DNA of 64,000 bases from Vallitalea sp. (GTDB lineage Bacteria > Bacillota > Clostridia > Lachnospirales > Vallitaleaceae). Below are positions 15,208 through 30,273 of the stretch, in pieces (position 1 is the stretch's first letter; each line of letters starts with the position of its first letter). The position numbers and the translations under genes were made by a program. Under the pieces are notes generated by a model, which saw only the letters and a program-made list of their open reading frames with translations, was not told the origin of the DNA and ran no database searches. The DNA lies in assembly GCA_025210235.1 (NCBI GenBank), contig JAOASG010000034.1, forward strand, positions 63,922-127,921, read 5' to 3'.

Positions 15208-16557
15208 ATGGGTATATTATTTGGAACAGATGGTGTAAGAGGAATTGCAAACAAAGAACTTACTATAGAAATGGCATTTAAGTTAGGGCAAGCAGGAGCA
15301 CATGTACTGACTAAAGAAAATAAACATAAACCAACCATATTAATAGGCAGAGATACAAGAATTTCTGGAGAGATGTTAGAAGCGGCACTTATTTCAGGTA
15401 TATGCTCAGTTGGAGCCAATGCCGTTAGTATAGGAATAGTACCTACTCCAGCCGTAGCTTATTTAACAAAATTATATAATGCAGATGCAGGAGTAGTTAT
15501 TTCGGCGTCACACAATCCAGTAGAATATAATGGAATAAAATTTTTCAATAATAAAGGTTATAAACTGTCTGATCAATTAGAAGATGAAATTGAAGATATA
15601 ATGTTGCGTAGCTATGATAAAATAGAACTTCCTACAGGTACAAAGATAGGAAGGGTAAAGCATAAAAAAGAAAGTATTACAGACTATATTAATTATATTA
15701 AAAGTACAATTGATATGAATTTAGAAGGCATGAAGATAGTTATTGATTGTGCTAATGGTGCTTCCTATGTATCAGCTCCTGAAACATTAAGACAGTTAGG
15801 TGCAGAAGTGTTTATTATTCATAATGAGCCGGATGGAACAAATATTAATAAAAAATGCGGATCAACACACATGAAAGATTTACAGCATTTTGTAACACAA
15901 GTTGGAGCAGATATTGGTTTTGCTTATGACGGAGACGCAGATAGATGTCTTGCAGTAGATGAACTTGGTAATATAATTGATGGGGATCAAATTATGGCTA
16001 TCTGTGGATTATATATGAAAAGACAAGGAAAATTGTGTAAAGATACTGTAGTTGCTACTGTTATGAGCAATCTTGGATTTTTTATTATGGGTAAAGAGAA
16101 GGATATACATATAGAACAAACAAAAGTTGGGGATAGATACGTATTAGAAAAGATGATGGAAGAAGGATATAATTTAGGTGGAGAACAGTCTGGACATATT
16201 ATATTTTTAGACGAAAACACTACAGGCGATGGACTTCTTACTTCTTTACATCTATTAGAAGCACTCAAAAACTCAGATAAAAAATTATCTGAACTAGCAC
16301 AAGTAATGGAAGTATTACCACAAGTTTTAGTAAATGCAAAGGTTACTAATGGTAATAAATACAGTTATTTAGAAGATGAAGTTATAAAAGATGAAATTGG
16401 TAAATTAGAAGAAAAGTTTGATGGTGAAGGTAGAGTTTTAATTAGACCTTCTGGAACAGAACCATTAATTCGAGTAATGATAGAAGGAAAAAATCAAGAT
16501 ATACTTCTTGAGGAAGCAAAATCACTAGCTTCTTTGATTGAAAATAGATTAAATTAG
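15208..16557 (+). CDS. glmM: phosphoglucosamine mutase
   Basis: 449 aa with the active-site SASHNP motif and an [13 protein letters not shown]-terminus. Confidence 0.92.
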
Positions 16558-16567
16558 ATAAGTAACT

Positions 16568-16718
16568 CAAACTTCGCACTTCATAAATTTCTGTGAAGTA
16601 AACTAAATTAAGGATTTCATCAACAATAAAAATACAGATGATCCTACGTTTTTTATTGTTGATGATAAACTCATAAGCCTATATTTTGCTGAACTTAAAG
16701 TCAAAGTGCGAAGTTTGA
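16568..16718 (+). repeat. 151-bp element bounded by perfect 14-bp terminal inverted repeats (TCAAACTTCGCACT / AGTGCGAAGTTTGA), with internal hairpins, in the glmM-glmS spacer
   Basis: TIRs at 16568-16581 and 16705-16718. Nested palindromes ACTTCATAAATTTCTGTGAAGT and CATCAACAATAAAAA…TTTTTATTGTTGATG. A shortened inverted copy lies at 32621-32683. Confidence 0.6.
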
Positions 16719-16761
16719 TTAAGAGAATAAAAGTATAAATAAGTATTAGGAGGACATTAGT

Positions 16762-18594
16762 GTGTGTGGTATAGTTGGATATATAGGTAATAAAGAAGCG
16801 GCACCTATTTTAATTAATGGGTTAAAAAGTTTAGAATATAGAGGATATGATTCTGCAGGAATCTCTATATATGACAATAAGATAAATTCAGTAAAAACAA
16901 AAGGAAGATTAATTAATTTAGAAGAGCGTTTAAGTAATAACCAGTTAAATGGAACTATTGGGATAGGTCATACTCGTTGGGCTACTCATGGAGAACCTTC
17001 AGATATTAATTCACATCCTCATATGAATAGTACTAGTACGATATCATTGGTTCATAATGGAATTATTGAAAACTACATGACAATAAAAGAAAAATTACAG
17101 TTAAAGGGACAAGAGTTTGTATCTGAAACTGATACAGAAGTAGCAGTTCAGTTGATAGATTATTATTATAAAAAGAATAATAATTTATTAGATTCTGTTT
17201 TAAAAGCTATGGAAAAAATTGAAGGCTCTTATGCTTTTGGAGTAATATGTAATGATGAACCTGATAAAATAATTGCAGTTAGAAAAGATAGTCCATTAAT
17301 AATTGGAATTGGTAAAGGGGAAAATTATATAGCATCTGATATTCCTGCTATTTTAGAACATACAAGAGACGTATATCTATTAGAAGATAAAGAAATTGCA
17401 ATTGTAACAAAAGATAATGTTAAAATAATAGATACTGATAAAAATGAAGTAAAAAGAGATATTTATAATGTTACTTGGGATATTAAAGCTGCTAGAAAAG
17501 ATGGATATGAACATTTTATGTTAAAAGAAATTTTTGAACAACCAAAAGTTGTAAAAGATACTTTATCCCCAAGATTGCCTCTTGATATTGATGATATAGT
17601 TCTTGATGATATTAATTTATCCAAAGAGGTTATTAAAAAGATAAATAAAATATATATAGTAGCTTGTGGTACAGCTTCATATACTGGTTTAGTAGGTAAG
17701 TATTTAATTGAAAGAGTAGCTAGAATACCTGTAGTTGCAGAGGTAGCATCGGAATTTCGATATAGAGAACCTATAATTGATGAAAATACTTTAATGATTG
17801 TTGTTTCACAATCAGGTGAAACAGCGGATACTCTTGCAGCACTTCGTCTTGCAAAGAAAGCGGGAGCATATGTAATTGGGATTGTTAATGTAGTGGGGTC
17901 TACAATATCAAGAATTGCAGATGATGTTTTGTATACTTGGGCAGGTCCAGAAATAGCAGTAGCGTCAACTAAAGCATATTCAGCTCAATTATGTGCTATG
18001 TATCTACTCTCAATAAAGATAGCTATGGAATTTGGAAATATTTCAAAAGAAGAATTTTTACTTCTTAGAGAAGAGTTATATACTTTACCTGATAAGGTAT
18101 CTAAAATATTAGAGCAAGCAGATACTATTAAAAAATTAGCTAATAAATACATTAACTCTAAAAATGTATTTTATATTGGTAGAGGTCTTGACTATGCAGT
18201 ATCAATGGAAGGTGCTCTTAAATTAAAAGAGATTGCTTACCTTCATGCAGAACCTTATGCAGCTGGTGAGTTAAAACATGGTCCAATTGCACTTATTGAA
18301 GATAATTCACTTTTAGTTGCTCTTACAGGTCATGAAGAGCTTTTTGATAAGACAGTTAGTAATATAAAAGAAGTTAAAGCTAGAGGTGCTAAAGTGTTAG
18401 CTATTGCTTTAGAAGGTAATACAGAGATAAGTAAGATTGCTAATGATGTAATTTATGTACCAAGAACTAACTGGATGTTTACATCATTACTTGAAAACAT
18501 TCCACAACAAATATTTGCTTATTATATTTCAGTTGGACTGGGTAATGATGTTGATAAGCCAAGGAATTTGGCTAAGAGTGTGACTGTTGAGTAG
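16762..18594 (+). CDS. glmS: glutamine--fructose-6-phosphate aminotransferase (isomerising)
   Basis: 610 aa with GTG start, Cys1 (MCGIVGY), an Ntn amidotransferase domain and two SIS domains. An AGGAGG RBS is present. Confidence 0.93.
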   Translation: MCGIVGYIGNKEAAPILINGLKSLEYRGYDSAGISIYDNKINSVKTKGRLINLEERLSNNQLNGTIGIGHTRWATHGEPSDINSHPHMNSTSTISLVHNGIIENYMTIKEKLQLKGQEFVSETDTEVAVQLIDYYYKKNNNLLDSVLKAMEKIEGSYAFGVICNDEPDKIIAVRKDSPLIIGIGKGENYIASDIPAILEHTRDVYLLEDKEIAIVTKDNVKIIDTDKNEVKRDIYNVTWDIKAARKDGYEHFMLKEIFEQPKVVKDTLSPRLPLDIDDIVLDDINLSKEVIKKINKIYIVACGTASYTGLVGKYLIERVARIPVVAEVASEFRYREPIIDENTLMIVVSQSGETADTLAALRLAKKAGAYVIGIVNVVGSTISRIADDVLYTWAGPEIAVASTKAYSAQLCAMYLLSIKIAMEFGNISKEEFLLLREELYTLPDKVSKILEQADTIKKLANKYINSKNVFYIGRGLDYAVSMEGALKLKEIAYLHAEPYAAGELKHGPIALIEDNSLLVALTGHEELFDKTVSNIKEVKARGAKVLAIALEGNTEISKIANDVIYVPRTNWMFTSLLENIPQQIFAYYISVGLGNDVDKPRNLAKSVTVE

Positions 18595-18671
18595 TGAATT
18601 TTGGTTAAATAATATATATTGTAGACTTACAACAAAGTTGTTAAATAAACAATAAAGTTGTTAAATTAGTA

Positions 18672-18775: not shown

Positions 18776-18892
18776 GTGATTGAAATCATGCCACTAATAT
18801 ATGAAGATGAACATTTTATAGTTGGGATTGCAAGATATCATACTTTAAGTGGTAATAAGAAGCAAAAAATAAAAGAGGCTTTACAAGGATAA
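18776..18892 (+). pseudogene. short ORF or gene remnant (38 aa, GTG start) in the glmS-downstream spacer
   Basis: An AAGGAAGG RBS followed by GTG and a 38-codon ORF (…IEIMPLIYEDEHFIVGIARYHTLSGNKKQ…). It is too short for the ORF track and looks like a truncated N-terminus. Confidence 0.25.
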
Positions 18893-19143: not shown

Positions 19144-19179
19144 ATATTGGGCAATAATTAAAAATTTGGGTGAGAAAAA

Positions 19180-21093
19180 ATGTCAAGAAAATTGATTGAA
19201 AATATAATTCCTATTAAAGAATTAAGTGAATTAGCGAAAAAAGAAGGAAACAGTAAAAAACCTGTATATAGAATTCATAAATGGTGGGCTAGAAGATTAG
19301 GCTGTATAGTTAGAGCGCTCTATATTGCATCAGAATTACATTACGATGCTACAGATGAAGAATTTTGGGATAGATTTTACTCAAAAAATACAAGTGACTT
19401 GACAGTTTTAGATCCATTTATGGGTGGAGGGACTACGTTAGTAGAAGCTAAAAAAATGGGTATGAAAACAATAGGTGTTGATGTTGACCCACTTGCATGT
19501 TTTATTACGAAAAAGGAATTAGAAGATTGTAATTTGGATAGGATAAAAAAACAATATGAAATAATAGAAAAAAATATAGCTGAAAAGATTTTGAAACTAT
19601 ATACAACACGAATAGATGATAAGGAATATGAGATAATAAACGTCTTTTGGGTTTATGAAATTGATTGCCCAGAATGTAATTCTAAGGTTAGAACACACCC
19701 TCATTATAAATTATATTATAATAAAGAACAACAATATGTATTTTGTTCAGAGTGTGGAGAAGTAGATGTTATTGATATTAGCAAAGAAATTCATACGTGT
19801 AAATCCTGTGGATCAAAAACTAATATTGATAATGGTACCTACAAAAGAGGTAAGTGTAAATGTAAAATATGTAATACAGATTTTTTATTAAGAGATAATG
19901 TTAAAGGTAATAGAAACCTTCGATTATTTGCTTTAGAATATTTAGATGGAGAAAAAAGACTATTTAAAAAAGCAGACTATCAGGATATCAAGAAATATAA
20001 TGAATTAGAAACATATGATTATGTCCAAATACCAAATGAAAAAATTCCAAATGAAGCTAGAAAAGATATGAGACCTATTAGCTATGGATATAATAATTAT
20101 GGAGAGTTATTTAATAAGAGGCAAAGAATTGCTTTATCAATAATTTATAATGAAATTAATAATATTAAAAACGCATCAATTAAAGAATGGTTTACTATAA
20201 CTTTTTCAGATGCATTAGCATGTAATAATATGTTATGCAATTATGCTTATGGATATAGAAAATTAACACCGCTATTTGGTATTCATGCATTTACTGTACC
20301 TGTTAGACCTGTTGAAAATAACGTTTGGGGAACTACATTTGGAAGAGGCTCATTCAAAAAAGTTTTTAATAAGACTATTAGAGCAAAAGAATACTGTCAA
20401 AATACATATGAATCTAAATATGAAAAGGGTAAGCATAAAAGGATATATACAGGAGAAAGTATAAAGGCAAAGGTGACTTCAAATCCTGTGACTTTTTATA
20501 AAGGGAAAAGGGATAGTTTAATATTAAATCGTAGTTCTGCTCAATTAAAAGCAGTAAGAGACAAAACAGTTGATATTATAATGACGGATCCTCCATATTA
20601 CGATAATCTAAACTATTCTGAACTTGCACATTTTTATTATCAGTGGATAAAAGAGGATATTTCTTATAAATGTGATGATTATATGGATAAATCTCTTCAT
20701 GTCAATGATTTAGTGGAGAACTATCATGAGTTATTTGTAGACCAATTAACAAAAGTATTTAAGCAGTGTTATAAGAAGCTAAAAGATGATGGTATTATGG
20801 TTTTTTCATATCATCATAACAAAGAAGAAGCTTGGCAGGCATTAGGTAAAGCGATATATACTGCAGACTTTAAAATAGTTAATGTGTTTCCTGTTTTATC
20901 AGAAGGTAATAGTGCATATCATTCATCTGAAGGAACTATAAAGTGGGATTCAATCTTAGTACTCAAAAAAGCAGATAATTGTAAGAACATAACTAAAAAG
21001 AACATAGAATATTGGAAGCGATATTTCAAAGATAATAATTTAGAATTAAAACAATGTGACATAAATAGTATTTTGCAGTCAATTAAAATATAA
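19180..21093 (+). CDS. DNA (N6-adenine/N4-cytosine) methyltransferase, split-motif DUF1156-like type with Zn-ribbon insert
   Basis: 637 aa. N-terminal KKPVYRIHKWWARRLG box. AdoMet motif I VLDPFMGGGTTLVEA at about aa 75-90. Four CxxC pairs (CPEC, CSEC, CKSC, CKIC) in the middle. Catalytic motif IV IMTDPPYYDN at about aa 465. Confidence 0.75.
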   Translation: MSRKLIENIIPIKELSELAKKEGNSKKPVYRIHKWWARRLGCIVRALYIASELHYDATDEEFWDRFYSKNTSDLTVLDPFMGGGTTLVEAKKMGMKTIGVDVDPLACFITKKELEDCNLDRIKKQYEIIEKNIAEKILKLYTTRIDDKEYEIINVFWVYEIDCPECNSKVRTHPHYKLYYNKEQQYVFCSECGEVDVIDISKEIHTCKSCGSKTNIDNGTYKRGKCKCKICNTDFLLRDNVKGNRNLRLFALEYLDGEKRLFKKADYQDIKKYNELETYDYVQIPNEKIPNEARKDMRPISYGYNNYGELFNKRQRIALSIIYNEINNIKNASIKEWFTITFSDALACNNMLCNYAYGYRKLTPLFGIHAFTVPVRPVENNVWGTTFGRGSFKKVFNKTIRAKEYCQNTYESKYEKGKHKRIYTGESIKAKVTSNPVTFYKGKRDSLILNRSSAQLKAVRDKTVDIIMTDPPYYDNLNYSELAHFYYQWIKEDISYKCDDYMDKSLHVNDLVENYHELFVDQLTKVFKQCYKKLKDDGIMVFSYHHNKEEAWQALGKAIYTADFKIVNVFPVLSEGNSAYHSSEGTIKWDSILVLKKADNCKNITKKNIEYWKRYFKDNNLELKQCDINSILQSIKI

Positions 21094-21203
21094 AAGATTG
21101 ATATATTTAATAGAAAAAATAACTAAAGATAACATTAGTTGTTTTTTTTTGTATTTTTGTGTAAAATAATATTAGAGTATAAAAAATTAGAAAGGAGCAC
21201 ATA

Positions 21204-24200
21204 ATGAAATACATAGTAGATAAAAGTGTATTTACTAGCTTGGCAAATAATGGATGTAAAAAATATGCAATAAATCTTCTTTCAAAAAAATGGCAAGAAA
21301 GTTTGAAACAATCCAAATGTCAGTGTGGTTCAAATAAAAAAATGATTGAATGTTGTGGAAAAAATAAGAGTATTAATGAAATATTTCATGATTATAATTA
21401 TGTTGAAGAAAAATTAAAAATAAAAATTCCTCACGTTGATAAAGCTCCATTAGCAGCTCATATAAGGCAAGGTGAATATGCTGAAATTAAAAAGATTGAG
21501 GAATTGTCATATTATTATAATATAGGAACTCAATTACTAAATATAAAAAAATCAGAATTAATCAAGCCTTTTTCTAGTTCTGGAGAATTAGATATAACAT
21601 TTAATAAAAATAATTCAGAGCGACTTGGTCGATTAATATTTAAAAGAAAGATAAAAGGTAATGACTTCAAAATTCCTAAAGTGGGAGAAATTTGTAGTAT
21701 TGAGTTGTTTGAAAAGATAATCAGTAATGATAAATATGATTTTTTGTTTCAATTTAAATTTAATGTTAATAAGTATTTTTTTGCCTCTATTATTGGAAAG
21801 ATTGATTTTGAATCTATTTATACAAAATTACCGGATGTAGAGTTTTCAAATTGTATGCCTGATTTAATTCGTATAGTTCGCAAGAATGATGAGAAATATT
21901 ACAATTATAAAGTATTGGATGCTAATATGAATTCCGTTAATTCTAATAACGATAAAATTAAAATCATGGTTTGTGATATAAAAAATTCTGATTTTAGTAA
22001 TAAGTTCTTTGTTGAGTTAGGTCTATATATGTTGGCACTAAATTCTTATATTTATGATAATAATTTAGAAGAAATGGTTGAAGTAGTATCAGAAGGATTA
22101 ATATATCCTGAACTAGAGAATGAGATTGAAGAAGAAAGATTACACAGAATTAAGAATAAGGGAAAAGAATCAATTGCTAAATGGAGAGTAGAATTTTCAT
22201 CAATTAGAGAAGAAATAATAAAAGTATTTAAAGAGAAAATACCTGAATTAATACATATGGTTGAGCAAGGCAAGAGAAAAGATTATACAGAAATTAAAAT
22301 AACGCCAATGTGTACAACATGTGATTACTATGGTGGCCAAAATTCTGCTGAACTTAAAAAATATATAAATAATAATTTAGGAAAAGAACATTTTACATAT
22401 TCAAATATCGAAGAATATCTTAATGATCCAGACAATAACTTCTGTAGATATTGTGTTAAAAATGAAGAAAATATTAATTTGCTTCCGGATATTAATACTG
22501 GTGAAAAAAACACATTAATCAGTAATTCTATTTACAAAATTCGTGATTTAAAAAAAGCGATTCAAATAGATAATGGTATTTTTGATGAGAATATATCTCT
22601 AAAATCCGATAAAAAAATAATTGACATGGGATTAACCCTAAGAGAAAAACAGGAAAATTATACATTGCTAAATAAAAGAACAATAAATTTGCCTAAATTC
22701 TGTAATTTAAAGATATTTATAGATATTCAAAAAAGCTCCAAGGACCAAACGCTATCATTTGCATATAGTATTAATACTATTTATACTGATAAAGAAGGGA
22801 ATAAAATCAATGAAGGAGGATTGCTAAATCCCAAATTATCTATATCATTAATTGATGAATATTCGTTTAGAAATGATATTAAAGAATATCTAGAGTTTTT
22901 ATTTGACATAAATGATGTTTTGATAAACTTTGAAGATGTTGAAAATAAGTATGGTCAGCTAACATATTCATTAATATACTGGGGTCAATCTACTTATGAT
23001 CATATGAAGAAATTATTTCTTGTGATATTTCCTTATCTTAAACGTGATGGAAAAGGAATTGAAGAAATATATATATCTAGTAATGATACAACAATAGAAA
23101 ATAAAAAAAGGAAAATTAAACAGTTAAAAGAAAGGTTTTATACTTTGTTTGCACCTGAAGATGAATTGCAAGATTATCAGATTGTTGAAAAAAGTCCTTT
23201 TTTTGACATGAAAAAAGCCGTTACAGATACTCTTGTAATGAATGCAGATATTAGTCTAACTTTAGAGCAAGTGAATAGTTTGTTATCAAATTATAATTAT
23301 AGTTTTGGATATCATAAACCTGATTCGGATAGCTTTAGTGGATATGTGTATGGGCAAATATGGAATGTTGATAAGACTGGAAAAGAGAAAGATAATTTTA
23401 AAAAAGATATACAAAAGATTATTGAGCAAAGATTAAAGGCAATGATGGGTATTTATATCCATCTATCAAAAAAAGGCTATTTATATGGAGATTCTCCAAC
23501 AATTATTCCTTTGAAAAATAAAAATCTTTTTGGAAACTTTGATATAGCTAATGATTTATATTTGTATCATAAATTAGATAATGCTCATGAGTTAATTGAG
23601 AAAGAAAAAATACATAATGAAGAAATATATAAGAAAAAGATATTGGGTAAGGCTCTTTTTCTAAAGGAAGAAATTATCGGAAATGAAAGAAGTAAAATCT
23701 TAGAAAAATATGATATACCTAATAATGACGAATTTGTTGTATATGAGATTGGTGATGAGTCTGTTGAAACTAAGCTAGATAAAAAGAGTTTATGCTTAAC
23801 CATGTATCCAGAAGAAAAGAATGATTTTATATTTAAGAAGTTTGTACCATTAAAATATAATAACGTTATTTACTATGATGATAAGAAATATCCGATAGAC
23901 TGGGGATATAAAAGGAATCAACGTACGTATAAAAAGGCATTAGAAGTCAAGATACACTTGTTTAAGCGTTTTAATAAGATTATCGTTTTACGAATACCAT
24001 CATTAACTAAAGAGTTAATGAAGATATTGGTGAATGAATATAATTTTGATTTTAGTAGAAATATTATTATTGAATGTTTTCATCATGATTTCTGGGATTC
24101 GGTATTGAAAAGAACGTTGAATAAATTAAAAACTAATAAGGATAAAAGGAAGATGTTAGAGGATTTTGATCTAACTAAAATAAATGACTATTCATCCCAA

Positions 24201-25673
24201 AATATACTTGATGCTTTTAATGAATATTATGATGGGGTAGATATACCATTAGATAATTCGCAAGTAGGAGCTATTATTAAATCTTTAAATTATAACTTAA
24301 CATTGTTATGGGGACCACCTGGTACAGGAAAGACGCATACACTTGTTAACCTACTAGTTGCTTATAATATGCTTAATGATAAGCCTAAGCAAGTATTAAT
24401 AATGTGTAATACATATGACGCATTTGACAATATTATTTCAAAGCTTAGCGAAAACAAGATATTAGATTTTGAAGATATAGAGATTATTAGGTTAAGGAGT
24501 AATTATAGAGCTTCTAAAAAATATGAGTTTAATCATCTTAATTATCTTGATATTGGAAGTGGTGAATATAAAGAGAAGTTAAATGAATTATCTAAAAAAA
24601 ATATAAAACTACAAATAATTGCAAGTACCCCTCAACAGATAGGCAAAGTATTTGGAAACAGGCCACTAAAGAGTGCATTTAATATGGATCTTATTATTGT
24701 CGATGAGGCCTCACAAATGGATGTAGGACACTTTACTCCTGCACTTTTAAAATATAGTAAAGGTACACAAATTGTTTTAGCAGGTGATGATAGACAATTA
24801 CCGCCAATTACCAAAGTAAACCTTGAAAATGCAAAAGAAAATTATTATGGTTCTATATTCAGCCACTACTTATTAATGTTAGGTGATAAACTAAGGGTAT
24901 CATTAAATAATAATAGAAGATCAAATAAGACAATTGTTAATTTCTCTAAATTTACTTTTGATTATGACGATGATTATAGGGCAGTATATGAAAATAGAAA
25001 GATTGGTTTTGATAAAGTAAATAAAAATGATGATGTTTATAGTAAAATTTTGAACCCGAACAACTCTATGGTTCTATTACATTATGATGATGGTAATGCA
25101 AATCAATTAAATAAATTTGAGGCTAAAGAGGTTGTAAATATAATAAGACATATTTGGGATAATGGATTATTAGATGATAACAATAATAGATATAATATTC
25201 AGGATTTCCTTAAAAAAGGTATTGGTGTTGTTGTTCCACATACTGCACAAAGAAGGCATATACAAGATTTGTTAATACAATTATTTATCGATGAGTTACA
25301 TTTGGATAAAGATATAGATAAAGAAATTTTAGCGGATAATATTATATCAAGTGTAGATACGGTTGAACGATATCAAGGTCAGGAAAGAGATATAATGATT
25401 TGTAGCTATGTTCTTGGAGATTTAGATGTAATCAATCAAGAAGAAGATTTTATCTATAGCCCAAATAGATTAAATGTAATGATTTCTAGAGCTAAGGCAA
25501 AAGCAATTATTCTAGCATCAAATGAACTTATCCTAAATATAAGTAATAATTTAGAGATTATAGATGCTCAAAAATCACTAAAAGAACTGTTAAATTATTG
25601 TAATGATGAAATACATAAGATTGGTGAAGGAGAATGGAAAAACAAAAATGGAGTAATTAGAATAAAAAAATAG
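21204..25673 (+). CDS. giant nuclease-helicase: SEC-C Zn motif + RecB/Cas4-like PD-(D/E)XK nuclease with Cys cluster + Upf1/Dna2-like SF1 helicase
   Basis: 1489 aa. N-terminal CQCGSNKKMIECCG (SEC-C-like). MVCDIKNSD and ELGLYMLAL resemble the RecB-family DxK and QxxxY motifs. CTTCDYYGG and NFCRYC form an Fe-S-type Cys cluster. C-terminal motifs: I GPPGTGKT, II IIVDEASQ, III LAGDDRQLPP, and VI-like RYQGQERD / NRLNVMISRA. Confidence 0.7.
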   Translation: MKYIVDKSVFTSLANNGCKKYAINLLSKKWQESLKQSKCQCGSNKKMIECCGKNKSINEIFHDYNYVEEKLKIKIPHVDKAPLAAHIRQGEYAEIKKIEELSYYYNIGTQLLNIKKSELIKPFSSSGELDITFNKNNSERLGRLIFKRKIKGNDFKIPKVGEICSIELFEKIISNDKYDFLFQFKFNVNKYFFASIIGKIDFESIYTKLPDVEFSNCMPDLIRIVRKNDEKYYNYKVLDANMNSVNSNNDKIKIMVCDIKNSDFSNKFFVELGLYMLALNSYIYDNNLEEMVEVVSEGLIYPELENEIEEERLHRIKNKGKESIAKWRVEFSSIREEIIKVFKEKIPELIHMVEQGKRKDYTEIKITPMCTTCDYYGGQNSAELKKYINNNLGKEHFTYSNIEEYLNDPDNNFCRYCVKNEENINLLPDINTGEKNTLISNSIYKIRDLKKAIQIDNGIFDENISLKSDKKIIDMGLTLREKQENYTLLNKRTINLPKFCNLKIFIDIQKSSKDQTLSFAYSINTIYTDKEGNKINEGGLLNPKLSISLIDEYSFRNDIKEYLEFLFDINDVLINFEDVENKYGQLTYSLIYWGQSTYDHMKKLFLVIFPYLKRDGKGIEEIYISSNDTTIENKKRKIKQLKERFYTLFAPEDELQDYQIVEKSPFFDMKKAVTDTLVMNADISLTLEQVNSLLSNYNYSFGYHKPDSDSFSGYVYGQIWNVDKTGKEKDNFKKDIQKIIEQRLKAMMGIYIHLSKKGYLYGDSPTIIPLKNKNLFGNFDIANDLYLYHKLDNAHELIEKEKIHNEEIYKKKILGKALFLKEEIIGNERSKILEKYDIPNNDEFVVYEIGDESVETKLDKKSLCLTMYPEEKNDFIFKKFVPLKYNNVIYYDDKKYPIDWGYKRNQRTYKKALEVKIHLFKRFNKIIVLRIPSLTKELMKILVNEYNFDFSRNIIIECFHHDFWDSVLKRTLNKLKTNKDKRKMLEDFDLTKINDYSSQNILDAFNEYYDGVDIPLDNSQVGAIIKSLNYNLTLLWGPPGTGKTHTLVNLLVAYNMLNDKPKQVLIMCNTYDAFDNIISKLSENKILDFEDIEIIRLRSNYRASKKYEFNHLNYLDIGSGEYKEKLNELSKKNIKLQIIASTPQQIGKVFGNRPLKSAFNMDLIIVDEASQMDVGHFTPALLKYSKGTQIVLAGDDRQLPPITKVNLENAKENYYGSIFSHYLLMLGDKLRVSLNNNRRSNKTIVNFSKFTFDYDDDYRAVYENRKIGFDKVNKNDDVYSKILNPNNSMVLLHYDDGNANQLNKFEAKEVVNIIRHIWDNGLLDDNNNRYNIQDFLKKGIGVVVPHTAQRRHIQDLLIQLFIDELHLDKDIDKEILADNIISSVDTVERYQGQERDIMICSYVLGDLDVINQEEDFIYSPNRLNVMISRAKAKAIILASNELILNISNNLEIIDAQKSLKELLNYCNDEIHKIGEGEWKNKNGVIRIKK

Positions 25674-25818
25674 TATGTCAATAGGATGGAATATTCAATG
25701 TATATATAGTAATATAAAGATGATCTTGACATTGATTTATATATATACTGGATAACAAAGAATAATTGGTGAAAAAGTCTAATAAGCACTAATTTTGAAA
25801 TGATGAAAGGGTGAGAAA

Positions 25819-26748
25819 ATGGCAAATATATATTATGTAAAAGTCAATATAAATTCAGAAATTTATAATGTCTATAAAGGTTATGCGTCTATAAGCAATA
25901 TAATGGATGAGGTATTTGAAAAAATTAATGATGAAGTGGATTATGTTCATACTGTGGTTGGACATAATAAGAAAAATCAAAGGTTTGAAAAAGAGGATAT
26001 ATATAGCTTTTCAGAATTACAAAAATTGAAAGATGATGGTAAAGAGTATATCATAGGTAAAATTAATAGGAGGTATCCTATTTTTACAGAAGAATTTGAT
26101 GAAGAAACAAGAAAATCTAAGCCAATTGTAATTGATAATAATTCTATCAGTATTCAATTCTATTTTGATTTGAAATCAGAGATTATAACATTTTGCAAGA
26201 GAAATAAATTTGGCGAAAAGCAGTTTGCACTAGGATTTGAAGGCTTATTAAATGAAATTATGAGAACACAAGATTTTACCATTTTTTTGATTAAAGATCC
26301 TTTCAGTATAGAAGAAAATTTAAAACTTGCTCATAAAATAGTAAAATTAAAAACTATTACTGTAGCCCCAAACGCTAATGAAGAGGAATTAGCTGAGTTA
26401 TATGATGTAGATGTAAAAGATATGGAAACCGCAAATATACATAGAAAAACAAGTATTTTTGAGAGTTCAGATAAAAATAAAGGATTAAATATTAACTCTA
26501 AACTTATAAAAAGTAGTTTGCATCTTAATAAAGCGTATAAAAACTTTCAACGGGGGTATGGCAAACTTGAATTTGATGCCATATCTGAAGAAGGTTCTGA
26601 ATACCATTATGATTCAGATGAAAATTCTCCATTTATGACACACATTAATGATGATTTGAAAAATAATAAAGAGTATTTTATGAAAGAAAGTAAAATAGGT
26701 ATACAAAGAATTATAACTAAAGAAATAATTGAAGCATATGTAAAATAG
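25819..26748 (+). CDS. hypothetical protein (309 aa), co-oriented with the MTase/helicase pair
   Basis: ORF with an RBS (AAAGGGTGAG). No recognisable domain. The C-terminal half is acidic. Confidence 0.5.
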   Translation: MANIYYVKVNINSEIYNVYKGYASISNIMDEVFEKINDEVDYVHTVVGHNKKNQRFEKEDIYSFSELQKLKDDGKEYIIGKINRRYPIFTEEFDEETRKSKPIVIDNNSISIQFYFDLKSEIITFCKRNKFGEKQFALGFEGLLNEIMRTQDFTIFLIKDPFSIEENLKLAHKIVKLKTITVAPNANEEELAELYDVDVKDMETANIHRKTSIFESSDKNKGLNINSKLIKSSLHLNKAYKNFQRGYGKLEFDAISEEGSEYHYDSDENSPFMTHINDDLKNNKEYFMKESKIGIQRIITKEIIEAYVK

Positions 26749-26765
26749 AAGAATGGAGGATTAGT

Positions 26766-27518
26766 ATGAAAAATGACCACTTAGGATTTAAAGCATTATT
26801 TAATGAATTATATGGTAAAAGTAAAAATCCATTGTTTAAATTTAGCTCATTTGAATGTTATTTTTCTATTATAATTTCAATGATTATATCTTCCTTAGGA
26901 TACTTTATTTATCAAGTTAATGGGATCCAAAATTTTACATCAATTATCAAAAATGTAATTTTAGGATTTGGATTTTCATTAATTGGTCTATTAGGATTTA
27001 TTATAACAGGTTTATCTATCATGATAAGTACTTTTGATAATAAATCTATTGATACAATACGCAAATCAGGTAGATTAATTAGACTAAAATCTATATTATT
27101 TAGTTTCTATTTTATTGGTTTAGTTATAGGAGTTGAAGTATTATTTTCATTTATATTATTTTTTATAGTTTCAATTGATATATCATTTAATATGACTTTT
27201 TACTGGATATCCTGTTTATTATATACTTACGTTGCTAGCTTTGTCTTATTATATTCTGTTTCATTACTAGGAACTTGTTTCCATATGTTTTTTATAAAAT
27301 TTGGTTATCAAGAAAGTAGTAAAAATACATTGCAGCAAGAAATTAATTTTTTACATCTTAAAGTCGATGCTTTATCAAAGATTTTATATGGTAATGATAT
27401 ATATGAATATGATCAATTTATTGAATGCCTAGAGCAAATTATAAATGATGAGTATCCCGAATGTAAAGAGGAGTTATTTAAAAGAATTAATGAATATTAT
27501 AATTTAAAGATTGGATAA
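26766..27518 (+). CDS. integral membrane protein (4-5 TM) with cytoplasmic coiled-coil C-terminus
   Basis: 250 aa, starting 18 bp after the previous gene. Hydrophobic segments (FSIIISMIISSLGYFIY, ILGFGFSLIGLLGFIITGL and others) precede a soluble tail. Confidence 0.5.
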   Translation: MKNDHLGFKALFNELYGKSKNPLFKFSSFECYFSIIISMIISSLGYFIYQVNGIQNFTSIIKNVILGFGFSLIGLLGFIITGLSIMISTFDNKSIDTIRKSGRLIRLKSILFSFYFIGLVIGVEVLFSFILFFIVSIDISFNMTFYWISCLLYTYVASFVLLYSVSLLGTCFHMFFIKFGYQESSKNTLQQEINFLHLKVDALSKILYGNDIYEYDQFIECLEQIINDEYPECKEELFKRINEYYNLKIG

Positions 27519-27699
27519 ATAGAAAACAATAGTTAGAAAATAATTATAAAATTTTATGGATTATTGCTAGTTATAAAACCAATTAACTTAAATGATACTA
27601 AAATACTTGTAGTTACTAAGAAATTACTAAATTTGATATTAAGGATGTATTCCGCTACAATAAAAATTCAACAACTATCTAACAAAAAGAAAAAAGGGG

Positions 27700-27970
27700 G
27701 TACTTTTGCTATTATATTTATGATATTTGAAGCAATATAGGTATTTCCAGTGATGTATGAATTATCGGTCTTAAACGCAGGTATGATTGTTTTCTCAACA
27801 ATTATTTCAGACCAATATGATAGGACTTGGATTACGTGTTTGCTTAGAATGGGGAAGTATCCATAGTAAGGAATTTAACCATTGCTAATATTCTCTTAAC
27901 GTATATTCCTATTGTCGTAGTAATTATTATTGGTTATGTATTTACAGGTTACTATCCAAACAATAATTAA
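27700..27970 (+). pseudogene. frameshifted C-terminal remnant of a membrane (permease-like) protein
   Basis: Two adjacent frames encode …YELSVLNAGMIVFSTIISDQYDRTWITCLLRMGKYP* and …NLTIANILLTYIPIVVVIIIGYVFTGYYPNNN*. There is no start codon or RBS. A hairpin follows at 27996-28030. Confidence 0.3.
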
Positions 27971-28069
27971 AATGCTAATTAAAAATAAGGGTGTAAGCAC
28001 TGGATAATGTAAGTGCTTACACTTTTTGGTATAGCACACTAAGTACTACTAAATAGATATGTATTATTT

Positions 28070-28495
28070 TTAGCCATTTAAACGTTTCAAGTTTTCGTGA
28101 GCTTTTGCTTCAAAATATTGATATAATGGTATTATATCAAATTTCTTAGGAAATTCCAATTTTTTTTCGCTGACAGTGATATTGTTAGCTCTATGATATG
28201 GTGATTTTATAAATGAAATAGTAAGTTCACTATCATCAATACCAGCACCGGCTGTTTCACAGCTCACTTCAAATATTGAATTTAAATAGATTGAATCTGC
28301 TCTCATTTTTTTCCCAGTTGCACCTTGTTTGTCAAAAATTAGAACTCGATGATTAGTTATAACAATAGCATCTCGAATAAGTTTATACCCTGATTTTATT
28401 TCTTCGGTGTCCAATAAATATTGACCATAACTTTTCTCTACATCTTCTTTTGATAATTCTGATAAATTTCCTGCTAGACCTTGAAAAATACCCAT
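28070..28495 (-). CDS. bacterial PH-domain (YdbT/GRAM-like) protein
   Basis: 141 aa. The pattern fits small bacterial pleckstrin-homology-like proteins, recalled from memory. Confidence 0.4.
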   Translation of the reverse strand: MGIFQGLAGNLSELSKEDVEKSYGQYLLDTEEIKSGYKLIRDAIVITNHRVLIFDKQGATGKKMRADSIYLNSIFEVSCETAGAGIDDSELTISFIKSPYHRANNITVSEKKLEFPKKFDIIPLYQYFEAKAHENLKRLNG

Positions 28496-28623: not shown

Positions 28624-29070
28624 TTAATCAACGCTAAATTTATAATAAGATAAAATATCATCATCATATAGATGTTCAAATCCTAATTTGTCTAAAATAT
28701 GTATACTTCTAAGATTTCTATGTACTGCATCTGCATAAATTGTACAAATGCCTAATTCTCTAATGGCATATTCAATTATTAATTGTTCAGCTTCTGTTCC
28801 AAATCCTTTTCCTTTAACAGAATCATTAATTAAATGAATGCTTAGAGTTCCACAGAGATTAACAAAATCAATTCGTTTTAACTGAATTTCACCAATAACT
28901 TTATTATTATAACAAATTGCAAAAAAACGTCTTTTGGTATCTAAAACTTTATTTTGATAATAGTTATCTACTTTTTCCTTATTGTAAATATATATATTAT
29001 ATGTCATTGCTGGGTCTGATATATAGTTTTTATAAAATTCATGGCATCTTTCTAGTGTATATGATCTCAA
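28624..29070 (-). CDS. GNAT family N-acetyltransferase
   Basis: 148 aa with an acetyl-CoA-binding motif (…VKGKGFGTEAEQLII…) in RimJ/RimL-like organisation. Confidence 0.65.
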   Translation of the reverse strand: MRSYTLERCHEFYKNYISDPAMTYNIYIYNKEKVDNYYQNKVLDTKRRFFAICYNNKVIGEIQLKRIDFVNLCGTLSIHLINDSVKGKGFGTEAEQLIIEYAIRELGICTIYADAVHRNLRSIHILDKLGFEHLYDDDILSYYKFSVD

Positions 29071-29260: not shown

Positions 29261-29746
29261 ATGAATGGTTATGCAATGTATATAATAGCTATAGGTTTGC
29301 TTATTGTATCTTATTATAAAGATAAGAAAAAGACGAAAAAAGCTATGAAGAAGGCTTGGAAGTCATTTAATAATATCCTGCCACAGTTTCTTGGAGTAAT
29401 ATTATTTGTTGGAATATTACTTGCTGTATTTGATACTGAATTTATATCTAAGATAATAGGAGCTAAATCAGGATGGATTGGAGTTGTTGTATCAGCTATT
29501 GTTGGTGCTGTAACACTCATTCCGGGGTTTGTTGCATTTCCTACTGCTGCGATGTTACTACAAAGGGGAGCAGGATATATGCAGATAGGGGCTTTTATTT
29601 CTACACTAATGATGGTTGGAGTAATCACAGCACCTGTCGAGATTAAGTATTTTGGTAAGAAGCTAACAATAATTAGAAATATATTAGCATTTGTTTTTTC
29701 TTTTATTGTTGCCTATATAATAGGAAAGGTGGTAACTAACCTATGA
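29261..29746 (+). CDS. two-component membrane permease complex, subunit 1 (DUF318/permease half)
   Basis: 161 aa, 4 TM. Gly-rich G..G..G.P repeat shared with the next ORF. Confidence 0.55.
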   Translation: MNGYAMYIIAIGLLIVSYYKDKKKTKKAMKKAWKSFNNILPQFLGVILFVGILLAVFDTEFISKIIGAKSGWIGVVVSAIVGAVTLIPGFVAFPTAAMLLQRGAGYMQIGAFISTLMMVGVITAPVEIKYFGKKLTIIRNILAFVFSFIVAYIIGKVVTNL

Positions 29747-30273
29747 AAACTTTAAAAAGGTATACTTTTGCAATTATTATTATAACTACAATAATATTAT
29801 TACTAATATTTAATAGAGATATAGGACTGAAAGCTATAAATATTACGTCTAGTAATCTAAAAGAAATGATTCTTGTAATACCACCTGTTTTTATACTATT
29901 AGGATTATTAGATGTATGGGTTCCAAAAGAAACTATGATGAAGTATATGGGGGAAAAATCAGGTATTAAGGGAATAGTATTATCTATAATATTAGGTTCA
30001 GCAGCAGCAGGACCACTATATGGAGCTTTTCCAGTAGCAGCTGTATTTATGAAAAAAGGCGTAAAGTTTAGTAATGTATTAATATTTATCGGAGCTTGGT
30101 CAACCACCAAAATACCAATGTTTTTATTTGAAATATCAGCTCTAGGATCAAAATTTGCAGTTACAAGATTATTAATTGATATTCCTGGAATAATTATAAT
30201 TGCCTATATTTTAAATGGATTAATAAATAAAGAAGAAGTAAAAAGAATATATGAAAATGCTGAGTTAATGTAA
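29743..30273 (+). CDS. two-component membrane permease complex, subunit 2
   Basis: 176 aa, 4 TM. Overlaps the previous gene by 4 bp. Same internal repeat (…LGSAAAGPLYGAFPVAAVF…). Confidence 0.55.
   Translation: MKTLKRYTFAIIIITTIILLLIFNRDIGLKAINITSSNLKEMILVIPPVFILLGLLDVWVPKETMMKYMGEKSGIKGIVLSIILGSAAAGPLYGAFPVAAVFMKKGVKFSNVLIFIGAWSTTKIPMFLFEISALGSKFAVTRLLIDIPGIIIIAYILNGLINKEEVKRIYENAELM

What the first reader, a model, noticed from the sequence alone, without database searches (positions are those of the whole stretch)
19180..27518. Candidate undescribed restriction-like defence module: split-motif MTase + 1489-aa nuclease-helicase + two accessory genes, inserted right after glmS
Four co-directional genes sit immediately downstream of glmS, a classic insertion hotspot, with decayed gene remnants on both sides (18776-18892 and 27700-27970). 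Gene 1 is an amino-MTase with the AdoMet motif at the N-terminus and DPPY about 390 aa later, separated by four CxxC Zn-ribbon pairs and preceded by a WWARR box that I recall from DUF1156-type methylases. Gene 2 fuses a SEC-C Zn motif, a RecB/Cas4-like Fe-S nuclease and an Upf1/Dna2-type SF1B helicase. DUF1156 methylases are usually described with a DUF499 ATPase and a DUF3883 helicase in three-gene helicase/methylase/ATPase modules. Here no ATPase gene is present, and the partner is a Dna2-like nuclease-helicase. That does not fit Type I (no HsdS/HsdR), Type III (no Res), BREX (no PglZ or BrxC), DISARM (no DUF1998 or PLD) or Hachiman/Mokosh layouts. Two downstream genes, a 309-aa unknown protein and a 250-aa polytopic membrane protein, are within 146 bp and 18 bp and may be effector or abortive-infection components.
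Basis: partly seen in the sequence, partly recalled or inferred. Interest (0 to 1): 0.85.

Follow-up and report, generated by a model that had tools for sequence, protein, structure and literature searches.

The report
Two defence modules in Tn7 relic
The four genes after glmS are the leftover cargo of a decayed Tn7-like transposon and are two separate two-gene units: a rare, unnamed pair of a DNA methylase and a Dna2-like nuclease-helicase that looks like a new kind of restriction-modification system, followed by an already recognised phage-exclusion pair.

Summary
The four-gene unit is not. Twenty-five bp after the glmS stop there is a Tn7-like transposon end (TGT terminus plus two 18-nt repeats). 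It is followed by a 38-codon tnsD/tniQ fragment, and no tnsA/B/C/E gene or left end is present. This is a decayed Tn7-like element at attTn7.

Genes 3 and 4 have no homologs in those loci. They form their own pair, a DUF4747-family protein plus a 4-TM protein, adjacent in 18 of 18 other loci, including phages. This matches the published DUF4747/CarolAnn (RexAB-like) system.

Best reading for genes 1 and 2: a Mod/Res-like, ATP-dependent R-M system with a non-homologous Dna2-like effector. That makes it a new variant of a known kind, with no experimental test yet.

The parts
16762..18594 (+). glmS. Its 3' end is the target that canonical Tn7 TnsD recognises (attTn7).
   Evidence: Pfam GATase_6/7 plus two SIS domains, 610 aa. 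glmM lies directly upstream at 15208-16557.
18620..18666 (+). Remnant of a Tn7-like transposon right end: TGTAG terminus plus two direct 18-nt repeats (18629-18646 and 18649-18666), taken as putative TnsB-binding sites. It starts exactly 25 bp after the glmS stop codon.
   Evidence: Sequence read. The repeats occur only here in the window. The terminus resembles the reverse complement of the left-end terminus of the related C. botulinum element (TGTAGGTTTGTAAAAAAGTT...). That these repeats bind TnsB is an inference.
18776..18892 (+). Pseudogene fragment of tnsD/tniQ: the first 38 codons, then a stop.
   Evidence: It aligns with the TnsD N-termini of five related elements; Y..DE....RYH..GN is invariant. 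A TnsD N-terminal profile searched against all 1455 six-frame segments of the window gives one significant hit, this segment, at E 3.3e-4; the next best is 0.41.
19180..21093 (+). Short-form DUF1156 amino-MTase, 637 aa. It has the DUF1156/WWARR N-terminus, AdoMet motif FMGGGT, a variable insert with two Zn ribbons (residues ~126-300, probable target-recognition domain) and the DPPY catalytic motif. It lacks the C-terminal ~240 positions of the 960-position DUF1156_antiphage profile.
21204..22523 (+). Gene 2, residues 1-440: Cas4/Dna2-type PD-(D/E)xK nuclease domain with four conserved cysteines (C18, C370, C373, C414). Catalytic candidates are G90xxxE94, D220, D258-x-K260 and E271xxxY275.
22524..24218 (+). 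Gene 2, residues 441-1005: conserved middle region of unknown fold. W593 is invariant. The only structural hint is a weak, unreliable resemblance to RNase H-like folds.
   Evidence: Low-confidence AF2 model (pLDDT 52). No significant fold or sequence hits.
24219..25673 (+). Gene 2, residues 1006-1489: SF1B (Upf1/Dna2-like) helicase with all motifs intact, including GPPGTGKT at 1037-1044 and DEASQ at 1167-1171.
   Evidence: Pfam AAA_11 and AAA_12. The best match among PDB sequences is DNA2 (5eaw, E 6e-16), followed by Upf1, IGHMBP2 and Sen1. Motif conservation is shown.
25819..26748 (+). Soluble 309-aa protein of the DUF4747 family; the cytoplasmic component of a CarolAnn/Sbash/RexAB-like exclusion pair. 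It is independent of genes 1 and 2.
   Evidence: Twelve homologs at 28-49% identity, 10 of them with a precomputed Pfam PF15931 hit; UniRef names P0016 a 'DUF4747 family protein'. Literature: PMC6426606, PMC6426596, PMC7542560, PMC13373217.
26766..27518 (+). 250-aa membrane protein with four hydrophobic segments and a ~70-aa soluble C-terminal tail. It is the membrane partner of the DUF4747 protein.
   Evidence: Hydropathy profile. Homologs lie immediately downstream of the DUF4747 gene in 18 of 18 loci.
27519..28069 (.). Unassigned spacer before the next host-like genes (bPH at 28070-28495 and GNAT at 28624-29070, both on the minus strand). No Tn7 left end was recognised here.

Best explanation
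A Tn7-like transposon once inserted at attTn7, 25 bp downstream of glmS. It then decayed. tnsA/B/C/E and most of tnsD were deleted and no left end can be recognised, so its cargo is now fixed in place. That cargo holds two independent defence units.

Unit A is genes 1 and 2. I read it as a two-gene, Mod/Res-like, ATP-dependent restriction-modification system. The short DUF1156 N6-adenine MTase would mark host DNA at a motif read by its variable Zn-ribbon insert. The 1489-aa partner would use its SF1B motor to translocate on unmarked DNA and its Cas4/Dna2-type Fe-S nuclease to degrade it. Specificity would come either from the unknown ~560-aa middle region or from a complex with the MTase.

Unit B is genes 3 and 4. 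It is a DUF4747 + 4-TM pair of the CarolAnn/Sbash (RexAB-like) type. By analogy, it is a cytoplasmic sensor that activates a membrane protein and aborts infection.

Shown here: the anatomy, the domain identities, the conserved gene pairing and the Tn7 context. Inferred: methylation specificity, self/non-self discrimination, nuclease and helicase activity, and anti-phage function.
For: Tn7 relic. A TGT end plus two 18-nt repeats lies 25 bp after the glmS stop. The tnsD N-terminal fragment is the only significant TnsD match in the window (E 3.3e-4). No other tns gene is present in the window.

Genes 1 and 2 as a pair. The MTase lies directly upstream of the nuclease-helicase, on the same strand, with a gap of 4-123 bp, in the window and in 9 other distinct loci: L001/2/12, L003/4/9, L005, L006, L007, L008, L093, L094 and L096. 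This holds even where the helicase is only 23-26% identical to the window's. In 6 of 6 close-clade loci with enough upstream DNA, the pair directly follows tnsA-E. Other defence cargo sits nearby, including an HD-domain protein (dGTPase-like by my reading) and pPIWI_RE/PRTase-CE genes. Tn7-like cargo is known to be enriched in defence systems, with R-M the commonest (PMC8649781).

Catalytic integrity. The MTase motifs are invariant, and the Zn-ribbon insert is the most variable region (47% against 62-67% pairwise identity), as expected of a specificity domain.

Partner swapping. Related short DUF1156 MTases pair elsewhere with classical or helicase-type restriction partners: an EcoO109I-like REase, SNF2+NOV_C, or DUF499+PglZ-like proteins. 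So this MTase family is habitually the modification half of R-M-like systems.

Genes 3 and 4. They have no homologs in any MTase-helicase locus. They are adjacent to each other in 18 of 18 other loci: beside a Type I R-M system, beside Dnd-like genes, beside a PycTM gene on a Bacillus plasmid, in the lysogeny module of Clostridium phage HM T, and in 14 IMG/VR contigs. Published DUF4747 + 4-TM systems defend against phage (PMC6426606, PMC6426596, PMC7542560), and the 'DUF4747/CarolAnn prophage system' is listed as an immune operon in PMC13373217.
Against: There is no experimental or methylome evidence, so function rests on domain content and context alone.

How an SF1B/Dna2-like enzyme would sense methylation is unknown. 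Dna2-type enzymes normally need free ssDNA ends. The middle region has no recognisable reader domain.

The window's MTase is shorter at both ends than its homologs and could be impaired.

No sequence-level Pfam or PDB hit supports the nuclease. Foldseek E-values are modest (4.5e-3), and clustering of the four Cys in the model was not checked.

No left end or target-site duplication was found, so the island's right boundary is undefined. The resemblance of the right end to related elements is limited to the terminus and an AAAGTT core.

In L094 the pair sits after an SNF2 helicase and a 1175-aa MTase-like gene, so two genes may not be the whole system in every lineage.

Profile comparison with lambda RexA and RexB was negative.
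Confidence: 0.6

Rival explanations
1. Gene 2 is a stand-alone, Nhi-like nuclease-helicase immunity protein. It would sense phage replication intermediates or DNA ends directly. The adjacent MTase would be functionally separate: an orphan or epigenetic MTase, or the surviving half of another R-M system.
For: Nhi is a single protein with an N-terminal PD-(D/E)xK nuclease and an SF1B helicase, and it defends without any MTase (bioRxiv 10.1101/776245). Dna2/Cas4-type nucleases act on ends or ssDNA rather than on recognition sites. Gene 2 shows no methyl-reader domain.
Against: The MTase is directly upstream in 10 of 10 distinct loci, across helicase identities from 23 to 53%. That is hard to explain without a functional link. 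The PADLOC library returned only seven families for gene 2, none of them Nhi. Gene 2 is also more than twice the size of Nhi.
Confidence: 0.15
2. The pair is a stripped-down Hma / BREX-related (BR) system. Its ATPase (DUF499) and SNF2 helicase-nuclease functions would be replaced by, or merged into, gene 2, and it would work by the still-unknown BREX-like mechanism rather than by classical restriction.
For: The best PADLOC and NCBIfam hits for the MTase are PglXI, HmaB, DUF1156_MTase and DUF1156_antiphage. BR systems are defined as DUF499 ATPase + DUF1156 MTase + Swi2/Snf2 helicase-nuclease (bioRxiv 10.1101/2025.10.09.681413). More distant MTase relatives do sit next to DUF499+PglZ-like or SNF2+NOV_C genes. 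In L094 an SNF2 helicase lies directly upstream of the MTase of the pair.
Against: There is no DUF499, PglZ or SNF2 gene in the window or in the 8 other close-clade loci. The MTase scores 108.8 bits against an NCBIfam cut-off of 1000 and lacks the C-terminal third of that profile. The helicase is SF1B, not SF2.
Confidence: 0.12
3. The pair is not an immune system. It would serve the transposon itself, for example by processing DNA ends, competing with other elements for attTn7, or acting as an addiction module that stabilises the element.
For: It is found almost only as the first cargo after tnsE in Tn7-like elements of Clostridia. R-M-like pairs can act as addiction modules. In L003, remnants of a second Tn7-like element lie downstream, which shows competition for the same site.
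Against: Distant members occur outside a visible Tn7 context (L094; also L093 next to toxin-antitoxin genes). In the window the pair remains intact although the transposition genes are gone. This suggests selection on the host rather than on the transposon.
Confidence: 0.08

Closest known systems
Type III restriction-modification (Mod + Res)
   Same: A two-gene operon with the MTase first and a large ATP-dependent helicase-nuclease second. The MTase carries an internal variable target-recognition insert. The presumed logic is that methylation protects self DNA and the motor-nuclease attacks unmarked DNA.
   Different: Res is an SF2 helicase with a C-terminal PD-(D/E)xK nuclease. Here the motor is SF1B (Upf1/Dna2-like) and the nuclease is an N-terminal Cas4/Dna2-type domain with four conserved cysteines, separated from the motor by a ~560-aa unknown region. 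The MTase is of the DUF1156 type, not a Type III Mod.
Hma / Type-1 BREX-related systems (DUF499 ATPase + DUF1156 MTase + SNF2 helicase-nuclease)
   Same: A DUF1156-type N6-MTase with a TRD insert between motif I and DPPY, paired with a helicase-nuclease fusion.
   Different: There is no DUF499 ATPase. The helicase belongs to a different superfamily and the nuclease to a different family. The MTase is ~300 aa shorter and lacks the C-terminal part of the 960-position profile.
Eukaryotic Dna2 and bacterial Cas4 / AddB / Exo5 nucleases
   Different: There is a ~560-aa insertion between the domains. The third-to-fourth Cys spacing is ~13-40 residues rather than 5. The context is a mobile defence island with an MTase, not replication or repair.
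Nhi (nuclease-helicase immunity, Staphylococcus)
   Same: A single polypeptide with an N-terminal PD-(D/E)xK nuclease and a C-terminal SF1B helicase, used against phage.
   Different: Nhi is ~72 kDa, has no MTase partner, and its helicase overlaps DUF2075. No PADLOC Nhi hit was returned for gene 2.
DUF4747/CarolAnn, Sbash gp30/31, Butters gp30/31 and lambda RexAB (for genes 3 and 4)
   Same: A soluble ~300-aa DUF4747-family protein followed by a membrane protein with four hydrophobic helices. The pair is encoded in prophage lysogeny modules and in defence islands.
   Different: The membrane partner is larger (250 aa against 144 for RexB) and has a soluble C-terminal tail. No detectable sequence or profile similarity to lambda RexA or RexB was found here.
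Tn7 and Tn7-like transposons at attTn7 (glmS)
   Same: Insertion ~25 bp downstream of the glmS stop, a TGT terminus with subterminal repeats, a TnsD/TniQ gene, and defence cargo.
   Different: Only a right-end remnant and 38 codons of tnsD survive. There is no tnsA/B/C/E gene and no recognisable left end, so the element is immobile.

Membership tests
Tn7-like transposon (intact element) | Core genes tnsA/tnsB/tnsC plus a target selector (tnsD/tniQ) | tested here: not met
   tblastn with TnsA-E from related elements finds only the 38-codon tnsD fragment. This is a relic, not a functional element.
Tn7-like transposon (intact element) | Arrays of inverted TnsB-binding repeats at both ends, with TGT...ACA termini and a 5-bp target duplication | tested here: not met
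   A right-end-like TGT terminus plus two repeats lies at 18620-18666. No inverted copies exist anywhere in the window at up to 3 mismatches, and only a lone 13-mer with 2 mismatches occurs at 27666-27678.
Tn7-like transposon (insertion at attTn7) | The element end lies ~23-25 bp downstream of the glmS stop codon | tested here: met
   The glmS stop is at 18592-18594 and the TGT terminus at 18620, a 25-bp spacer. The canonical distance is taken from established knowledge of Tn7.
Type III R-M | Res subunit: an SF2 (DEAD/ResIII) helicase with a C-terminal PD-(D/E)xK nuclease | tested here: not met
   The helicase is SF1B (AAA_11/AAA_12; best PDB matches DNA2 and Upf1). The ResIII hit scores 21.7 bits, below the cut-off of 22.5. 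The nuclease is N-terminal.
Type I R-M | HsdS specificity subunit and HsdR | tested here: not met
   No such genes are present in the window's island or in related loci.
Hma / BREX-related type 1 | DUF499 (BrxC-like) ATPase gene in the locus | tested here: not met
   No DUF499 hit in the window ORFs at 15-45 kb or in L001-L008 and L096.
Hma / BREX-related type 1 | Swi2/Snf2 helicase fused to, or next to, a DUF3883/NOV_C nuclease | tested here: not met
   Gene 2 has no SNF2 or NOV_C match. Such partners do occur next to more distant MTase relatives.
Hma / BREX-related type 1 | Full-length DUF1156 anti-phage MTase (NCBIfam NF042963, cut-off 1000 bits) | tested here: not met
   The score is 108.8 bits, and only profile positions ~440-717 of 960 are matched in the best stretch. 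The Pfam DUF1156 N-terminal domain itself is met at 25.6 bits against a cut-off of 24.
BREX | PglZ and BrxC/PglY | tested here: not met
   Both are absent from the window island and from close-clade loci. The PglXI hit on the MTase is partial.
Mokosh / Dpd / PLuB / ProA (helicase models that hit gene 2) | Full-length match to the system's model | tested here: not met
   The hits cover only the helicase core (residues ~970-1468). NCBIfam scores are 111 against a cut-off of 999 and 73 against 1500.
Cas4/Dna2/AddB-type Fe-S RecB nuclease (fold family) | PD-(D/E)xK core with D...(D/E)xK...(Q/E)xxxY motifs | tested here: met
Cas4/Dna2/AddB-type Fe-S RecB nuclease (fold family) | Four cysteines (one N-terminal, three C-terminal) that bind a 4Fe-4S cluster | tested here: inconclusive
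   C18, C370, C373 and C414 are 95-100% conserved in the right topology. However, the last spacing is 13-40 residues, not 5. Their spatial clustering and metal binding could not be checked.
Nhi | Match to the Nhi models in PADLOC | tested here: not met
   None of the seven PADLOC families returned for gene 2 is Nhi.
DUF4747/CarolAnn (RexAB-like) exclusion system | Cytoplasmic component with a DUF4747 (PF15931) domain | tested here: inconclusive
   Ten of 12 homologs carry a precomputed PF15931 hit and UniRef names P0016 a DUF4747 family protein.
DUF4747/CarolAnn (RexAB-like) exclusion system | An adjacent, co-directional membrane partner with four TM helices | tested here: met
   Four hydrophobic segments. 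The partner is adjacent in 18 of 18 loci.
Lambda RexA/RexB (Pfam PF15969/PF15968) | Sequence or profile similarity to RexA and RexB | tested here: not met
   hhalign probabilities are 0.2-0.3%. There are no PHROG or Pfam Rex hits.

The most novel reading that the evidence does not exclude
The DUF1156 MTase plus Dna2-like (Cas4-type Fe-S nuclease + SF1B helicase) pair is a previously unnamed class of ATP-dependent restriction-modification system. It would have evolved independently of Type I/III Res and HsdR enzymes, spread mainly as the first cargo of glmS-targeting Tn7-like transposons, and use its unknown ~560-aa middle region to read methylation state.
Probability: 0.4. Interest if true: 0.65.

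Novelty: new variant of a known kind. Interest (0 to 1): 0.5.

Why it matters
If genes 1 and 2 are a working system, they show that the restriction half of an R-M system can be built from a Dna2-like chassis, that is, an Fe-S Cas4-type nuclease plus an SF1B motor. All classical ATP-dependent restriction enzymes use SF2 motors instead. The pair would also be a compact two-gene system for asking how an end-processing nuclease-helicase is coupled to methylation status.

The pair is also an example of how Tn7-like elements deliver defence cargo to attTn7 and then decay, leaving a fixed defence islet after glmS.

For genome annotation there are two practical points. The ~1500-aa proteins now labelled 'DEAD/DEAH box helicase' or 'AAA domain-containing protein' form a definable family. 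And the two small genes should be annotated as a DUF4747/CarolAnn-type pair, not as accessories of the MTase-helicase pair.

Tried and rejected
- **Four-gene module.** Rejected. tblastn with genes 3 and 4 against every MTase-helicase locus found nothing.
- **Left end of the transposon.** Searched with the 18-mer, the 13-mer core and the terminal motif, allowing mismatches, and with general inverted-repeat detection. Only a lone weak 13-mer was found at 27666-27678, so no left end is called.
- **Remnant at 27700-27970.** It has only ORFs of 25-47 aa and no similarity to Tns proteins or to related loci. It remains unresolved.
- **Nucleotide similarity of the two flanking spacers to related elements.** None found.
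- **Sequence-level identification of the N-terminal 1000 aa.** Pfam, PADLOC, NCBIfam and PDB profile searches gave nothing. The only hit was an insignificant match to the SEC-C-like peptide of YchJ.
- **First AF2 model (residues 1-1005, 7 sequences).** Too poor to use (pLDDT 52). Its fold search gave only insignificant RNase H-like hits, so the middle region stays unassigned.
- **Lambda RexA/RexB homology of genes 3 and 4.** Negative by hhalign and PHROGs.
- **DUF4747 in this session's Pfam copy.** Not reproduced.
- **Carriage of the nuclease-helicase on plasmids or viral contigs.** None found. The metagenome scan added only one locus, L096.
- **Promoter and terminator scan.** Uninformative in this 26% GC DNA.
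- **Right ends of related elements.** They lie just outside every fetched locus; L012, for example, starts at tnsA. I therefore could not check directly whether those elements also sit at glmS.


Full report
**Observation**

The window has four intact, co-directional ORFs at exactly the stated coordinates: 19180-21093 (637 aa), 21204-25673 (1489 aa), 25819-26748 (309 aa) and 26766-27518 (250 aa). They follow glmM (15208-16557) and glmS (16762-18594), both identified by Pfam. GC content is 23-31% across the region, with no compositional break at the island. A database protein identical to gene 2 is labelled as coming from a Vallitalea sp. MAG.

**The insertion site: a decayed Tn7-like element**

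Every relative of gene 2 for which enough upstream DNA was available lies directly downstream of tnsA-tnsB-tnsC(tniB)-tnsD(tniQ)-tnsE. This holds for C. botulinum L001/L012 and for the metagenomic loci L003/4/9, L005, L006, L007 and L096.

Canonical Tn7 inserts just downstream of glmS (established knowledge), so I re-read the spacer after glmS. Exactly 25 bp after the stop codon the sequence reads TGTAGACTTACAACAAAGTTGTTAAATAAACAATAAAGTTGTTAAAT. That is a TGT terminus followed by two 18-nt direct repeats found nowhere else in the window. The terminus resembles the reverse complement of the left-end terminus of the C. botulinum element (…TTTTTTACAAACCTACA), which is itself preceded by repeated TTTTGATYAAAC…TTTT units.

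A TnsD N-terminal profile searched against all 1455 six-frame segments of the window finds only this segment (E 3.3e-4; the next best is 0.41).

No other tns gene is present in the 64 kb, and no inverted copy of the end repeats exists. The island is therefore the immobilised cargo of a Tn7-like element whose transposition genes and left end were lost. The second 'remnant' (27700-27970) could not be substantiated.

**Genes 1 and 2 are a conserved pair**

The MTase lies directly upstream of the nuclease-helicase, on the same strand, with a gap of 4-123 bp, in the window and in nine other distinct loci.

The pairing survives large divergence. In L093 the MTase is 53% identical to the window's but the helicase only 26%. 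In L094 the figures are 31% and 23%.

An exhaustive profile search with the N-terminal 1005 residues found only 77 cluster representatives among 1.84 billion proteins. About 52 of them are full length, at 1400-1650 aa. The only names attached to sampled members are generic, such as 'DEAD/DEAH box helicase' and 'AAA domain-containing protein', for example in Orenia marismortui. The family was not found in the plasmid or viral collections.

**Gene 1: the MTase**

Pfam gives a DUF1156 N-terminal domain (25.6 bits against a cut-off of 24) and a split N6_N4_Mtase match. The FMGGGT AdoMet motif is at residues 80-85 and DPPY at 470-473. Between them lie four invariant Cys pairs, which would make two Zn ribbons. 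This insert (residues 126-300) is the least conserved part of the protein, at 47% mean pairwise identity against 62-67% elsewhere. That is the behaviour expected of a target-recognition domain.

PADLOC and NCBIfam give partial hits to PglXI, HmaB, DUF1156_MTase and DUF1156_antiphage. The NCBIfam score is 108.8 bits against a cut-off of 1000, and the C-terminal ~240 profile positions are missing.

A genome scan with the MTase alignment found more than 564 relatives. Those at 28-42% identity, mostly archaeal and Chloroflexota, sit beside other partners: an EcoO109I-like Type II REase, an SNF2 helicase plus NOV_C nuclease, or a DUF499 ATPase plus a PglZ-like protein. This MTase family is thus a modular modification component that has been combined with several different restriction-type effectors. 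The nuclease-helicase is one such effector.

**Gene 2: the nuclease-helicase**

The C-terminal 480 residues are an SF1B helicase (Pfam AAA_11 and AAA_12). The best match among PDB sequences is DNA2 (E 6e-16), followed by Upf1, IGHMBP2 and Sen1.

Across 61 full-length members, the conserved N-terminal residues are C18, G90, P219-D220, D258-x-K260, E271xxxY275, C370-xx-C373 and C414, at 95-100%. These are the catalytic motifs of that nuclease family plus one N-terminal and three C-terminal cysteines in the family's usual arrangement.

Residues 441-1005 are conserved within the family but remain unassigned, because the full-length N-terminal model was poor.

The protein is therefore a bacterial Dna2-like nuclease-helicase with a large insertion between the two domains.

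**Genes 3 and 4 are a separate, known kind of system**

Neither gene has a homolog in any MTase-helicase locus.

Homologs of gene 3 (28-49% identity) carry precomputed Pfam PF15931 (DUF4747), and one is named 'DUF4747 family protein'. Homologs of gene 4 were found independently. The two are adjacent, in the same order, in 18 of 18 loci:
- beside a Type I R-M system (L089);
- beside Dnd-like genes in Formimonas (L090);
- beside a PycTM gene on a Bacillus plasmid (L091);
- in the lysogeny module of Clostridium phage HM T, between the recombinase/Zn-peptidase genes and the repressor-type regulators (HMT_3/HMT_4);
- in 14 IMG/VR viral contigs.

Gene 4 has four hydrophobic segments and a soluble tail. 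Gene 3 is soluble.

This is the architecture of the experimentally shown defence pairs CarolAnn gp44/43, Sbash gp30/31 and Butters gp30/31, which their authors compare to lambda RexA/RexB (PMC6426606, PMC6426596, PMC7542560). The 'DUF4747/CarolAnn prophage system' is listed as an immune operon in PMC13373217.

Two caveats apply. Profile comparison with lambda RexA and RexB was negative.

**Mechanism**

For genes 1 and 2 the most economical reading is a Mod/Res-like R-M system. The MTase would mark self DNA, and the motor-nuclease would destroy unmarked DNA. Four observations support this:
- the strict MTase-first operon structure;
- the variable TRD-like insert in the MTase;
- the habit of this MTase family of pairing with restriction-type effectors;
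- the defence-rich Tn7 cargo context (PMC8649781), with an HD-domain (dGTPase-like) gene and pPIWI_RE/PRTase-CE genes as neighbours in related elements.

All steps beyond domain identity are inferred. How methylation would be sensed is open; the candidates are the unknown middle region or a complex with the MTase.

The rivals are an Nhi-like stand-alone immunity protein with an unrelated MTase, a reduced Hma/BREX-related system, and a transposon-serving or addiction function. I consider each of these less likely, for the reasons given in the rival entries.

**Comparison with known systems, and novelty**

The pair fails the defining features of Type I, Type III, BREX, Hma/BR, Mokosh, Dpd and Nhi (see the membership table). 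The literature I could search describes DUF1156 MTases only in DUF499-centred Hma/BR systems. The only 'DNA2-like helicase/nuclease' it mentions is in an unrelated Dpd-like context.

I therefore rate genes 1 and 2 as a new variant of a known kind: an R-M-like system with a non-homologous, Dna2-like effector. Genes 3 and 4 are a new member of a known kind. The glmS location is fully explained by Tn7 biology.

Interest is moderate. The four-gene module does not. Function is untested, and new R-M-like gene pairs are not rare.

Noticed in passing
window 16558-16761: No glmS ribozyme, and no other Rfam family, reaches the gathering threshold anywhere in the 64-kb window. No tRNA genes are present either. 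The 205-bp glmM-glmS spacer therefore lacks the riboswitch that is common upstream of glmS in many Firmicutes.
   Followed up: partly
window 33341-35591: A 423-aa WYL-domain protein is followed, with a 14-bp overlap, by a 330-aa protein with no Pfam hit. WYL regulators often accompany defence or mobile genes, so this may be another small defence-related pair ~6 kb downstream of the island.
   Followed up: no
window 29261-30273: Two overlapping ORFs of 161 and 176 aa both match the N-terminal half of the ArsP_1 'predicted permease' profile. This could be a two-piece permease or a duplicated or split gene.
   Followed up: no
L001 6086-7618; L006 5441-6967; L012: In the C. botulinum-type Tn7-like elements, a 508-510-aa HD + HD_assoc protein sits between tnsE and the MTase. 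It is dGTPase-like by my reading and is probably another defence cargo gene.
   Followed up: no
L003 18524-24632 (also L004): Downstream of the MTase-helicase cargo there are remnants of a second Tn7-like element (TnsA_C and TnsB_N fragments), followed by PRTase-CE and pPIWI_RE_REase genes. This suggests tandem or nested Tn7-like insertions that stack defence cargo at one site.
   Followed up: no
L094 1-7987: In a distant member, the MTase and nuclease-helicase are preceded by a 1175-aa ORF with weak similarity to the MTase (22% identity over residues 200-597), a 164-aa ORF and a 929-aa SNF2 helicase. This may be a larger five-gene variant of the system.
   Followed up: partly
L028, L029, L034, L073, L077 (Asgard archaeal MAGs): Two short DUF1156-type MTase genes flank a PhoU_div/PHO4 phosphate-transporter pair and are preceded by an Eco57I/MmeI-like N6-MTase gene. 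This arrangement is conserved and odd, and I cannot explain it.
   Followed up: no
P0012-P0021 (homologs of window 25819-26748): The protein database lists Pfam PF15931 (DUF4747) for 10 of 12 homologs. The Pfam-A copy used by the scan tool gave no DUF4747 hit for any of 13 family members, even at E <= 1. This is a discrepancy between the two resources.
   Followed up: partly
window 19166-19182 and 25805-25821: Genes 1 and 3 start with nearly the same ribosome-binding context (GGGTGAGAAAA followed by ATG). Each therefore appears to head its own translation unit, which fits two separate modules.
   Followed up: no
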